Assembly (NCBI GenBank): GCA_963514005.1
Contig: OY740791.1
Span: 45,322,001 to 45,386,000 of the forward strand
Direction: 5' to 3'
Length of the DNA: 64,000 nt
Source of the DNA: Raja brachyura
Lineage: Eukaryota
A program made the position numbers. The stretch's first letter is position 1. Each line of letters begins with the position of its first letter. Below, piece after piece: positions 57,501 through 60,500 of this stretch.

Positions 57501-60500
57501 TAAAATCATGATCTCAAAATCACATTCCTCCAGAAACCTTTGACCACCTTACCGTTCAAATGTATGTCACTCATCGTTTTGAACATTACCAGTGACTCCG
57601 CCTGCTGCAATTATGAATCCTGTTCACAGTCTTATCTGCCTCTCTGCAAGATCATTTTTCATTTATTTCATCTGGTAACGAGTATAGAGCCATCTTGCAC
57701 GACATTTATTCGTATGTCAAGCCCTTATTCCAAGAATCAACTTGGAACCTCTCTCTGCATCACTCTGAATCTCTCTGTGCTGCAACAAATGTAATCGTAG
57801 ACTTCCTTTAATGTGGCACGTGATGCGTACCATCCTCTGGTGCTGGTCATCACTGTGTTGGACCATTGTATTATATTTCCTTACTTTACGCCACTTCTAA
57901 TTACGGCGACCAATATTCAATTGGCTATCCTGATTACTTGCTACTAAACATTGTTTTCCACCGCTGTTCATGGATGTCTGAAGGTGGGGTGTGGGGGGGG
58001 GGGGGGGGGGGGGGGGGGAATGCGATGGATCCAGAGCAAAATAAATTGGGGCGCAATATGTTTTTATTCCACACCAAGACGGAGGCATTATTGCCTTTGG
58101 GCTCCTTGGCCCTCTTGCAGCTGTACAGCCGAGAGGGCAGAGGGCTGGAGCTTGTTCATCCCCCCGTTGCCGCTATCTCTGCTGCTGTTCGAGTCCAGCC
58201 AGCTCACGCTGCGAATCTTGAGGACAAAGCTTTCGAAGGCGGCATCGGCGGAAATAGTCTCCCTCGCCAGGTTCTCGATCACCTAGAGATCCAGTTCGCA
58301 GTATTCGAAGAAACTCTAAGCCCGAGCAGGCTCAGGAGAGGCGGCAGCTGAGGTCGGATTGCGAGCGCCGCAATCCGCCACCAATCCGCCGCTTGAGCGG
58401 CTCCTTGGGGGGACCTGCTGCTGCTTCACAAGGCGCTGCTGGCGTGGTTACTTGTGCACCCTGTGATGCTGCTGGCATGGCGACTGGAAGGGGGGGGGGG
58501 GGGGAGAGGAGCGGTGCAAGAGAGTAGAAAGAGGAGGGGATGATAGGAGGGGGTGGGAGAGGAAGGGAGAGGAGGGAAGCGGAGAGGAGGGGGGAGAGGA
58601 GGGGGAGAGAGGAGGGGGGGGAGCAGCGGAGAGCGGGCATCAACCAAAGGAGGAGGGAGGAGGAGGGTGGGTGACGATACTTGCAACGCGAACAAGCCGG
58701 CGCAGACTTAAACGTTTGTCAGATTTTTGAAGATTTTCATTAATAACTCGAGAAATAATGCATGACATTTTTCAAATAAGGTATTTTTGGCCTACAGGTG
58801 AAAATCTTTACCGGAACATGTACATATTTTACCATTTACGTTAGCGCGTCATTTTTTTAATGAGAAGATGCGATTATACACAACAAACACACACAGGAAG
58901 AAACACACACACACACAGACATCCAAGATCAGACTTCTAATAGTTACTAGACCAAGTGGAACCCGTTGGGTCCCGTCTCCTCAACGTGCGGTTGCGGGTG
59001 GGTGGTGGGGGGGTGCATGCAGTCACACATTCTAACCCCCCCCCCCCCACACACACACACACTAAACACACACCCCCACACACAGTAACCACCACCCCTT
59101 GATATTATATAAATATTATTCATTTGCTCCTTTACCCCATCCCTGCTCTGTCCATTCACACATAGCTCCCAACTCGCAGACGCGAGAGAGAGGGTGGGGG
59201 TGGGGAAGGGGGAGGGGGAGAGAGAGGTGGGGGCAGGAAAGATGAGGGGGGTAGAGAGGCGGGGGGAGTGGGGGTAGGAGAGTGGAGGGGGGAGGGGGGA
59301 GGGGGGAGAGGGGGGGACAGGGGGAGCAGATGGGGGAGAGAAGGGGGAGAAGAGGGAGGGGGAGGAGGAGGAGGGGAGGGAGGGGGGAGAGGGGTACGGT
59401 ACGGAGGAGAGGCCGGGGGAAGGGTGGGATGGAAGAGTGGCGGGGGGGGGGGGGGGGGTGGTAGAAGAGATGCCAGTGGGGAGAGAGACAGGGGGGAAGA
59501 GGGGAGGAAGGGTGAGAGAGTGCCTGGGAGAGGAGGGGGGTTGAGGGGCTGCATCTTTTGAATAACGGGGGAAGGAGGGAGAGGTGGGGGGATGTCACTT
59601 GCTCTGCATGGAAGGCACGCAGGCATGCAGATGGCTGGCATGCAGATCCATTGTGATGTCATCAGCGAAAGAGTCAGGGTTTTTTCAACGTTTTTTCAGA
59701 TTTTTGGACATTTTCATTAATAACACGAGAAATAAAGCACAAAAGTTTCAGATAAGGTGTTTTCAGACTCCACGGAGCAAATATCTATCGAAATATGTAA
59801 ACATTTTACCATTAGCGCGTCATTAAGAGATGATGTGAATATACACACACATCCACATACAAGATCAATCAAAACCAAGAATTATAAGTTCACATTTCAA
59901 CAATGTTTTCACAATTCAGTAGTACTGATTTTCAATATTCCATTCTGATATTTGAGAATACGAGGTTGCATGCAAAACATTAATTTTCAAAAATCTAGTT
60001 TCTGTGTAGAACATTATATTGCATTTATGTGAGAAATACCGATTTCCACAACAAAATACTGATTTTCAGCCATCAAAATACGGAAATGCTCGGTAAAATT
60101 TGGCAGCTCTGCAATTACTCACAATCACATTGTGTTTGAGAATTCAAAATGTGATTTGTGATCTTGTTTATGTCATCATGGAACTAGAATTTGTTATAAA
60201 GTATGACAGTAAAATAGTTTAGTTAGAAAGCGATCATAGTAGTGTAAATACACCATTTAGCTGGACTTCAATATTCATGATGGAAATTGAAGTCGAACTA
60301 AATGTTGTATTGACATCACTATTCCATTTTGAAATTGATGTGATGTGAAGTTGTTAGGTCAGGGGAACCTTAAAGGTGCACTGCACACAGTAACACAGTC
60401 TAACAGTAACAGGCAATTAAATCAACACACAAAACATTTTCTAAAATACGGTTTTCTTCACTGCAAAAACTCACAGTATTTTCTTTGCAGTTTTTGCATG

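What the first reader, a model, noticed from the sequence alone, without database searches (positions are those of the whole stretch)
58063..58945. FAM110D-like gene fragment carried on a Helitron-like element inside the Pcdh cluster
Seen: an antisense, GC-rich 400-bp segment encodes FAM110 C-terminal motifs in order, with two stops, frameshifts and a deletion, followed by AATAAA (58068-58063). It lies directly 3' of a Helitron-like 5' end on the same strand, next to a second copy with a canonical hairpin-CTAG end. Known: Helitrons capture host gene fragments in plants, bats and insects. Inference: Helitron-mediated gene capture in a cartilaginous fish. A retrocopy later hit by the element is the alternative. 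The FAM110D identity comes from recalled motifs.
Basis: partly seen in the sequence, partly recalled or inferred. Interest (0 to 1): 0.68.

Follow-up and report, generated by a model that had tools for sequence, protein, structure and literature searches.

The report
Dead FAM110C fragment inside a repeat
A decayed piece of the FAM110C gene lies backwards between two protocadherin exons of what looks like a skate genome, inside one of two adjoining repeat copies; it is an ordinary gene relic, and a Helitron as its carrier is possible but not shown.

Summary
The gene fragment is real, but it comes from FAM110C, not FAM110D. A 402-aa FAM110 protein (P0001) aligns to 58072-58466 (minus strand) in three collinear pieces in three frames, summed E 2e-35. 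There are two stops, two frameshifts and deletions. The nearest named relatives are skate FAM110C, and the fragment falls inside the skate FAM110C clade with 99/99 support.

The flanking repeat is also real. Two head-to-tail units of about 1 kb abut at 58933|58932 and share a ~190-bp head at 75% identity. The fragment lies inside unit 2. A 17-nt inverted repeat that starts at that unit's first base encloses it; 2 of 2968 control pairs score as well.

The Helitron label is not established:
- Only unit 1 has a hairpin-CTAG.
- That hairpin folds no better than shuffles.
- Such motifs occur 16 times in the window, about 9 expected.
- Unit 2 has no such end.
- No other copy exists in the window, and no eukaryotic genome could be searched.

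No poly(A) follows the fragment. My best reading is DNA-level uptake into a repeat unit of unresolved class (about 0.4). Interest is low to moderate.

The parts
58072..58490 (-). FAM110C-derived pseudogene fragment, about codons 244-402 of a 402-aa skate FAM110C up to the last codon. It is read in three frames.
   Evidence: tblastn of P0001 gives three collinear matches, summed E 2e-35. The best matches among 121 proteins are skate FAM110C at 65-69% identity. The fragment sits in the skate FAM110C clade, 99/99. Alignment.
58332..58334 (-). In-frame TGA where the skate proteins have R (the SRACSG stretch).
58283..58285 (-). In-frame TAG where the skate proteins have E (the EPEVIEN stretch).
58063..58071 (-). 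Former stop position, now TGG (58071-58069), followed directly by AATAAA (58068-58063). No A-run follows.
   Evidence: AATAAA occurs 60 times on the minus strand, and the only A-run of 7 or more between 56416 and 58072 is A8 at 57219-57212.
57893..58932 (-). Repeat unit 2 (1040 bp): left inverted-repeat arm, TG microsatellite, head, C-rich tract, FAM110C fragment, C26 run, right arm, 3' block.
   Evidence: Collinear blocks shared with unit 1. Inverted repeat.
58933..59867 (-). Repeat unit 1 (935 bp): head, long C-rich tract, a 170-bp middle unrelated to FAM110C, C-rich block, hairpin-CTAG, 3' block. It abuts unit 2 at 58933|58932.
58708..58931 (-). Head of unit 2: AT-rich, with a TG microsatellite near its 5' end.
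   Evidence: 74.7% identity to 59684-59864 over 194 columns. nhmmer profile hit E 4.2e-70. TRF.
59684..59867 (-). Head of unit 1.
58491..58707 (-). C/T-rich low-complexity tract of unit 2. It joins directly to the 5'-truncated end of the FAM110C fragment.
   Evidence: TRF rows 58490-58667. Composition.
59190..59683 (-). C/T-rich low-complexity tract of unit 1.
   Evidence: TRF rows 59184-59501..
58916..58932 (-). Left arm of the 17-nt inverted repeat. It starts at the first base of unit 2.
   Evidence: 15/17 complementary to 57980-57964 (pair I19). 0 of 500 shuffles and 2 of 2968 genomic control pairs score as high.
57964..57980 (-). Right arm of the inverted repeat, 92 nt beyond the last FAM110C codon.
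58933..58955 (-). 3' block of unit 1, TTGGTC...TTAGAAGT. It contains the CTAG.
   Evidence: Aligns with 57913-57893. 19 of 500 shuffles and 48 of 946 genomic controls score as high; 83 of 2975.
57893..57913 (-). 3' block of unit 2, the direct-repeat partner of 58955-58933.
58947..58974 (-). Helitron-like end of unit 1: 7-bp stem with one G.T (58974-58958), 7 nt, CTAG (58950-58947), followed by T at 58946.
   Evidence: The fold is no better than shuffles.
57993..58018 (-). C26 homopolymer (G26 on the plus strand) between the fragment and the right arm. It resembles a C-rich block near the end of unit 1 (59020-58996).
   Evidence: This is a low-complexity match and weak evidence.
53611..56415 (+). 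Upstream protocadherin variable exon (open frame), on the opposite strand to the fragment.
   Evidence: Pfam: Cadherin_2, five Cadherin stretches, Cadherin_C_2. ORF.
63163..63999 (+). Start of the next protocadherin variable exon (open frame, runs off the window).
   Evidence: 89.6% identical to 53071-54443.

Best explanation
Shown:
- 58072-58490 (minus strand) is a dead, 5'-truncated copy of the FAM110C coding sequence of a skate, from about codon 244 through the last codon. It carries two stops, two frameshifts and deletions.
- It lies antisense in the spacer between two protocadherin variable exons.
- It sits inside the second of two directly abutting, head-to-tail, about 75%-identical copies of an unclassified repeat unit of about 1 kb.
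- Unit sequence lies on both sides of it. The head and C-rich tract are upstream. A C-run, the right arm of a 17-nt inverted repeat and a shared 3' block are downstream.

Inferred, about 0.4:
- The fragment entered the unit as DNA, in a transposon-style capture into the variable middle of a non-autonomous element. It was carried there and has decayed since.
- The class of the element is open. A canonical Helitron (5'-TC, hairpin-CTAG) is one option, at about 0.15. A Helitron-like element with short terminal inverted repeats fits unit 2 somewhat better.
- The fragment has no function now.
For: - Identity.
- Position inside the unit: collinear blocks shared by the two units on both sides of the fragment, and abutment at 58933|58932.
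- Inverted repeat: it starts at the unit's first base and closes 92 nt after the last codon. It is 15/17 complementary; 0 of 500 shuffles and 2 of 2968 genomic controls score as high.
- The FAM110C-derived DNA is short at both ends. It starts in mid-CDS and ends within about 50 nt of the stop, with no poly(A). That fits an internal DNA fragment better than a copy of an mRNA 3' end.
- A central microsatellite or low-complexity region, short inverted repeats and a 3' palindrome are the described build of non-autonomous Helentrons. Those elements are reported in fish and reported to capture gene fragments (PMC4067079 and PMC11417382, passages).
- Both units begin with A|TC, and unit 1 ends hairpin-CTAG|T.
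- Other FAM110C-derived gene models exist in skates: P0009 and P0118 in Amblyraja radiata, P0010 in Leucoraja erinacea.
Against: - Only two units exist, both here. There are none elsewhere in the 64 kb, so mobility is not shown.
- Unit 1 lacks the inverted repeat (107 of 500 shuffles score as well).
- Unit 2 lacks a hairpin-CTRR end.
- Neither 3' hairpin folds better than shuffles.
- The 3' direct repeat is only marginal (p about 0.03-0.05).
- The C-run match is low complexity.
- The other skate copies hold nearly the whole coding sequence. They share 0 derived columns with the window copy. They therefore look like independent copies of the parent gene rather than offspring of one element-borne fragment.
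- Skate and shark repeats are reported as dominated by LINEs (PMC10115646 and PMC8455134, passages). This lowers the prior for a Helitron.
- None of the 10 ORFs of 150 aa or more that I scanned, out of the 21 listed, matched a Helitron Rep/helicase family.
Confidence: 0.4

Rival explanations
1. Nested arrival. A 5'-truncated FAM110C retrocopy, or a cDNA or DNA piece used as filler in break repair, landed in the fragile C-rich tract of a repeat unit that was already there. The element never carried it.
For: - 5' truncation with an intact coding end is the classic retrocopy shape.
- The genome group is reported as LINE-rich, and a LINE reverse transcriptase lies in the window at 47267-48818.
- At least three other FAM110C-derived models in two skates share no derived residues with this copy (0 columns), as expected for independent copies of the parent.
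- C-runs followed by TTCCAG and CTTCAG flank the fragment. This could be a target duplication or microhomology.
- 4 of the window's 7 homopolymer G/C runs of 12 or more lie in this 1.5 kb.
Against: - The only A-run of 7 or more within the 1.65 kb downstream is A8, 850 nt away.
- Unit-like sequence seems to resume within 50-90 nt of the stop. That leaves no room for a 3' UTR.
- The unit 1 positions that match the two flanks of the fragment lie about 410 nt apart, so this is a replacement, not a clean insertion.
- Recalled, not tested: CR1/L2-type LINEs rarely make processed pseudogenes.
Confidence: 0.3
2. There is no mobile element. A spacer segment of about 1 kb with low-complexity DNA was duplicated in tandem on the spot. 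The FAM110C relic arrived separately by ectopic duplication or repair, and the inverted repeat is chance.
For: - The two units abut exactly, and every shared block is collinear. A plain tandem duplication gives just this.
- There is no third copy in the window.
- Helitron-type end signals are at chance level.
Against: - The inverted repeat starts exactly at the unit boundary; 2 of 2968 controls score as high.
- The middles of the two units are unrelated.
Confidence: 0.2
3. One reading: a canonical Helitron (5'-TC ... hairpin-CTAG-3', inserted in AT) captured FAM110D. This is counted as a sub-case of the best explanation as far as the Helitron part goes.
For: - A|TC lies at the start of homology in both units (59865|59864 and 58929|58928).
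- Unit 1 ends in a hairpin, 7 nt, then CTAG|T.
- Helitron is listed among the transposon superfamilies of a shark genome (PMC8455134, passage).
Against: - The parent is FAM110C.
- The copy holding the fragment has no hairpin-CTRR-T end.
- The motif is frequent by chance: 16 in the window against about 9 expected. PMC11417382 (passage) says such signals are widespread and give many false positives.
- The CTAG lies inside a block that recurs at the end of unit 2.
- The two units share 5' parts but not 3' parts. PMC11417382 (passage) describes the opposite for these elements: left ends more diverse than right ends.
Confidence: 0.15
4. It is a live exon or gene, or the FAM110 likeness is chance.
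For: None beyond the open 175-aa frame on the opposite strand (57824-58351). I did not scan that frame against Pfam.
Against: - Summed E is 2e-35 in three frames, with two stops and two frameshifts.
- 115 of 121 FAM110 proteins hit this one place.
Confidence: 0.02

Closest known systems
Helitron gene-fragment capture (canonical Helitrons, HLE1; known from bats, maize and Xenopus)
   Same: A non-coding repeat unit holds a host gene fragment in its interior. Candidate 5' A|TC and, in the neighbouring unit, a hairpin then CTAG|T. The two units lie head to tail.
   Different: The unit with the fragment has no hairpin-CTRR end. The end signals are at chance level. The units share 5' rather than 3' sequence. 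There is no evidence of other copies or of a Rep/helicase partner. Capture in bats and maize is recalled, apart from the search-listing abstracts of PMC4778049 and PMC12001565.
Non-autonomous Helentrons / HLE2 (HINE, DINE-1-like elements)
   Same: Unit 2 has 17-nt inverted repeats, within the 11-18 nt given in PMC11417382. It has a microsatellite and a variable low-complexity middle, and a small palindrome after the right repeat. These elements are reported in fish and reported to capture gene fragments (PMC4067079 passages).
   Different: Unit 1 lacks the right repeat. The palindrome has a 5-bp stem and is not better than shuffles. A T-T insertion site cannot be shown. The right arm lies 71 nt from the putative end, against the 38-60 bp described.
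Processed pseudogene (LINE-mediated retrocopy)
   Same: An intronless, 5'-truncated, decayed copy that reaches the end of the coding sequence. There are several other FAM110C-derived copies in skates.
   Different: No poly(A), no recognisable 3' UTR and no clear target duplication. The absence of introns says nothing here if the parent's coding sequence is a single exon, which I recall but did not verify (one search gave nothing on this).
FAM110C (centrosome-associated FAM110 family)
   Same: The order and sequence of the C-terminal domain follow skate FAM110C at 65-69% identity.
   Different: Only the last 160 codons or so are present, and they are broken. The conserved stretch at aa 373-383 is deleted. 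On its own piece the Pfam FAM110_C score is below the family cut-off.

Membership tests
FAM110 family (derived from FAM110C) | Match to the Pfam FAM110_C domain at or above the curated cut-off | tested here: not met
   The 75-aa piece scores 20.6 bits against a cut-off of 27, E 9.4e-4. Two other pieces gave no hit. This is expected for a broken fragment read in one frame.
FAM110 family (derived from FAM110C) | Significant collinear homology to bona fide FAM110 proteins | tested here: met
   P0001 carries FAM110_N and FAM110_C. tblastn summed E is 2e-35. phmmer against 1.84 billion representatives found only P0001, E 8e-7. 115 of 121 FAM110 proteins hit this locus.
FAM110 family (derived from FAM110C) | Paralogue C rather than D | tested here: met
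   The named top hits of P0001 are FAM110C, with a single FAM110D at rank 116 of the 120 listed. The window fragment lies inside the skate FAM110C clade at 99/99, with the FAM110D row as outgroup. That tree used 20 of the 121 proteins plus the window.
Canonical Helitron (HLE1) | 5' terminus TC preceded by host A | tested here: inconclusive
   A|TC lies at the start of inter-unit homology in both units. However, 3 nt upstream also match, and two copies cannot fix an end.
Canonical Helitron (HLE1) | 3' hairpin a few nt before CTRR, followed by host T | tested here: inconclusive
   Present in unit 1 (58974-58946). Absent after the fragment in unit 2 (no hit between 56000 and 58072). The fold has z -0.10. 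The motif occurs 9 + 7 times in the window against a mean of 4.45 per strand in 20 shuffles.
Canonical Helitron (HLE1) | Ends confirmed by many copies or an empty site, with no target duplication | not testable with these tools
   There is no eukaryotic genome collection. No other copy is in the window. The paralogous protocadherin spacers do not align.
Canonical Helitron (HLE1) | Autonomous partner with Rep/helicase sharing the ends | not testable with these tools
   Of the 21 ORFs of 150 aa or more, 10 were scanned. They gave only retroelement and cadherin domains. The rest of the genome is not available.
Helentron-type element (HLE2 / HINE) | Short terminal inverted repeats of 11-18 nt | tested here: inconclusive
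   Unit 2 has a 17-nt repeat, 15/17 complementary; 0 of 500 shuffles and 2 of 2968 controls score as high. Unit 1 has none (107 of 500 shuffles score as well).
Helentron-type element (HLE2 / HINE) | Stem-loop after the right repeat, and insertion between T and T | tested here: inconclusive
   A 5-bp stem lies at 57925-57911, z -0.88. The 5' flank is T (58933) and the 3' flank is G (57892).
Processed pseudogene | Poly(A) tract at the 3' end | tested here: not met
   Nothing longer than A8 lies on the minus strand between 56416 and 58072. That run is 850 nt from the stop.
Processed pseudogene | Flanking target-site duplication | tested here: inconclusive
   Only C-run plus TTCCAG and CTTCAG flank the fragment. 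This is low complexity.
Processed pseudogene | Loss of the parent's introns, and presence of its 3' UTR | not testable with these tools
   No DNA of the parent gene could be fetched.

The most novel reading that the evidence does not exclude
A rolling-circle element of the Helitron/Helentron kind was active in the ancestor of skates. It took up the 3' half of FAM110C and carried it into the protocadherin cluster. If so, this would be a documented case of Helitron-type gene capture in a cartilaginous fish. It could also be linked to the unusual number of FAM110C-derived copies in skate genomes. I found no such report in the search listings.
Probability: 0.2. Interest if true: 0.6.

Novelty: new member of a known kind. 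Interest (0 to 1): 0.3.

Why it matters
As it stands, this is a harmless gene relic in an intron-like spacer. Its practical value is for annotation:
- It should be masked as a FAM110C pseudogene, not called FAM110D.
- It points to at least three skate gene models that look like FAM110C pseudogene pieces: P0009, P0010 (named FAM110B-like) and the N-terminus of P0118.

If the carrier proves to be a mobile rolling-circle element, it would extend gene capture by such elements to cartilaginous fish. It would also give a dated marker for that activity, because the copy arose within the skate lineage.

Tried and rejected
- The word-index search with the 75-aa piece against longer proteins found nothing. 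The full phmmer scan was needed.
- Pfam on the upstream frame piece and on the 64-aa piece gave no hit.
- A search for short proteins carrying only the C-terminal part gave one hit, P0121, 97% identical to P0001 and so the same gene. This shows no family of fragment copies, but that database is not built for pseudogenes.
- Looking for other copies of the head or of unit 1's tail in the window found none (blastn; nhmmer at E up to 10).
- Looking for an empty site in the paralogous protocadherin spacers failed because the spacers do not align.
- No N-terminal FAM110C sequence lies upstream of the repeats. This rejects the idea that the repeats split a full-length copy.
- Unit 1's tail is not found after the fragment, apart from a GCAT + C-run match. 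0 of 200 shuffles scored as high, but the control breaks up runs and is not fair.
- Rfam (E up to 1) gave only two sub-threshold miRNA-model hits. There are no tRNAs, so there is no sign of a SINE-type origin.
- Pfam on 13 spacer ORFs gave nothing below E 0.01.
- The extra skate copies share 0 derived residues with the window copy.
- Matches between the DNA upstream of unit 1 and the 3' part of unit 2 are not collinear and have E 4.4 each. I rejected them as evidence for a third unit.
- I also considered a plus-strand reading, in which the shared head is the 3' end of a 5'-truncated LINE/SINE-like repeat ending in a CA microsatellite. It could not be tested. The LINE in the window shares only a G-run with this region.
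- A search for the exon structure of FAM110 genes gave nothing usable.
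Full report
**Setting**

The window holds tandem protocadherin variable exons on the plus strand: 12829-15246, 20800-23031, 30154-32709, 41176-43737, 53611-56415, and 63163 to the end. Pfam on 53611-56415 shows Cadherin_2, five Cadherin stretches and Cadherin_C_2. The finding lies in the 6.7-kb spacer between the last two exons, on the opposite strand. The spacer also holds retroelement debris. A LINE reverse transcriptase lies at 47267-48818, and LTR-element pieces lie near 1508-2101 and 27999-28802. 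An N run at 50402-50591 was left untouched. Nothing here looks human.

**The gene fragment is real**

Read on the minus strand, 58060-58500 gives FAM110-like stretches in three frames.
- Pfam on one 75-aa piece, with the stop read as X, is only suggestive: FAM110_C, E 9.4e-4, 20.6 bits against a cut-off of 27. Two other pieces gave nothing.
- A word-index search found nothing.
- A full phmmer scan of 1.84 billion representatives found exactly one protein, P0001, E 8e-7, 63% identical.
- P0001 is a complete FAM110 protein: FAM110_N E 8.7e-17 and FAM110_C E 1.3e-29.

tblastn of P0001 on the window gives three collinear matches in three frames:

| P0001 residues | Window coordinates | Identical |
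|---|---|---|
| 250-303 | 58466-58308 | 42/54 |
| 302-375 | 58315-58121 | 41/74 |
| 384-402 | 58128-58072 | 15/19 |

The summed E is 2e-35. By eye the likeness reaches back to about 58490.

The damage is as follows:
- TGA at 58334-58332 and TAG at 58285-58283.
- Frame changes near 58316 and 58128.
- Gaps of 6 and 3 codons.
- Loss of about 11 codons (aa 373-383).
- The old stop now reads TGG.

I sent no joined reading to any search. The pieces were searched one by one. A joined row with X at the breaks was used only inside scripts, for the tree and one alignment.

**It is FAM110C, and the host is probably a skate**

- The named relatives of P0001 are FAM110C: Amblyraja radiata 86% identical, Rhinoraja longicauda 78%, then other rays and sharks. 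A single FAM110D appears at rank 116 of the 120 listed.
- Of the 121 stored proteins, 115 hit the window at E 0.01 or better. All hits fall in 58072-58466 except one weak match of P0031 to a protocadherin exon.
- Skate FAM110C scores best at 65-69% identity. Other batoids score 51-56%.
- In a tree of the window fragment plus 20 of the 121 proteins, the fragment sits in the skate FAM110C clade at 99/99. I chose all ten batoid rows, five sharks, four other vertebrates and one FAM110D. The other 101 proteins were left out.
- The copy therefore arose within the skate lineage.

**The neighbouring repeat**

On the minus strand two units share a head of about 190 bp. The heads at 59684-59864 and 58708-58898 are 74.7% identical, E 1.5e-27. 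Each head is followed by a C/T-rich low-complexity tract. Short-word blastn extends the shared part to a start at 59867 in unit 1 and 58931 in unit 2.

At the other end, a block at 58955-58933 recurs at 57913-57893. The scores as high as this were 19 of 500 shuffles, 48 of 946 genomic controls, and 83 of 2975 in a second control.

Taken together, the units are 59867-58933 and 58932-57893. They lie head to tail and abut directly.

In unit 2 the FAM110C fragment lies between the C-rich tract and a C26 run. In unit 1 the same interval holds about 170 bp of unrelated microsatellite-rich DNA.

A 17-nt inverted repeat (15/17 complementary) joins the first bases of unit 2 (58932-58916) to 57980-57964, which is 92 nt past the last codon. 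No shuffle of 500, and 2 of 2968 genomic control pairs, score as high. Unit 1 has no such repeat.

**Is it a Helitron?**

The defining features come from passages of PMC11417382 and PMC4067079.
- Canonical elements have 5'-TC and 3' hairpin-CTRR, and insert between A and T.
- The second group has 11-18-nt terminal inverted repeats and a stem-loop after the right repeat, and inserts between T and T.

For a canonical Helitron:
- Both units start A|TC.
- Unit 1 has a 7-bp stem with one G.T, then 7 nt, then CTAG|T.

Against it:
- The stem folds no better than shuffles (z -0.10).
- By my scan such ends occur 9 times on the minus strand and 7 on the plus, against a mean of 4.45 per strand in 20 shuffles.
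- None lies after the fragment.
- If the 3' block is true homology, the CTAG sits 14 nt inside the unit.
- PMC11417382 itself warns that these signals are widespread and give many false positives.

Unit 2 fits the second group somewhat better, with its inverted repeat, microsatellite, variable middle and small palindrome. Even so, the palindrome is weak (z -0.88), and unit 1 does not share the right arm.

No further copy exists in the window. None of the 10 ORFs I scanned matched a Rep/helicase family. No eukaryotic genome could be searched. The class stays open.

**How did the fragment get there?**

A classic retrocopy is not supported:
- No A-run of 7 or more lies within 850 nt of the stop.
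- AATAAA overlaps the codons right after the old stop, and it is common: 60 on this strand.
- Unit-like sequence seems to resume within 50-90 nt.

On the other hand:
- 5' truncation with an intact coding end is the retrocopy shape.
- Skate repeats are reported as LINE-dominated (PMC10115646 passage; PMC8455134 passages).
- The other FAM110C-derived models in skates (P0009, P0010, P0118) hold nearly the whole coding sequence and share no derived residue with this copy (0 columns). Their weak grouping in the tree (80/83) may be a long-branch effect.
- Absence of introns does not help if the parent's coding sequence is one exon. I recall that it is, but could not verify it.

**Verdict**

The identity is firm: a FAM110C pseudogene fragment. 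The position inside a repeat unit is fairly well supported. The mechanism is inferred:

| Explanation | Probability |
|---|---|
| DNA-level uptake into a repeat unit of unresolved class | about 0.4 |
| (of which, canonical Helitron) | about 0.15 |
| Nested retrocopy or repair filler | about 0.3 |
| Local tandem duplication without a mobile element | about 0.2 |

The decisive tests are genome-wide searches for the junctions, the parent locus, and the orthologous spacer in other skates.

**What stayed unchecked**
- Any eukaryotic genome or repeat library.
- Accession numbers of the skate proteins. The look-up could not be made.
- The closed collections (metagenome and viral contigs), which would not bear on this anyway.
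- Supplementary repeat tables of the cited genome papers.

Noticed in passing
53071-54443 and 62644-63998: The last two protocadherin variable exons and about 540 bp upstream of each are 89.6% identical over 1378 columns. They are much closer than the other exon pairs (about 75%). This looks like a recent tandem duplication of exon plus promoter.
   Followed up: partly
20800-23031: This protocadherin variable exon is split by a single in-frame stop at 22171-22173, and its open frame starts without the signal peptide and first cadherin part seen in the others. It is probably a dead variable exon.
   Followed up: no
61600-62200: A block of about 500 bp is 68-71% GC with CpG observed/expected 0.94. 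It has long open frames on both strands but no Pfam hit. It lies about 1 kb upstream of the next variable exon and outside the duplicated promoter stretch. Its nature is unknown.
   Followed up: partly
60475-60889 and 130-479: An interspersed repeat, 72.8% identical over 416 columns, is shared by the spacer and the start of the window. It was not classified.
   Followed up: no
47267-49180 (minus strand): A LINE-type element has its reverse transcriptase split over overlapping frames, plus an ALKBH8_N-like stretch. It sits next to the assembly gap at 50402-50591.
   Followed up: partly
Proteins P0009, P0010, P0118 (public skate gene models): The Leucoraja erinacea model named FAM110B-like (P0010) and the Amblyraja radiata FAM110C-like model (P0009) fall in the skate FAM110C clade. 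The A. radiata immunoglobulin-domain model LOC116986580 (P0118) begins with FAM110C-derived residues. These look like FAM110C pseudogene copies caught in gene models.
   Followed up: partly
57993-59458: Four of the window's seven homopolymer G/C runs of 12 or more lie within this 1.5 kb. The plus strand here is strongly G-rich and could form G-quadruplexes. This may make the spot prone to breaks.
   Followed up: no
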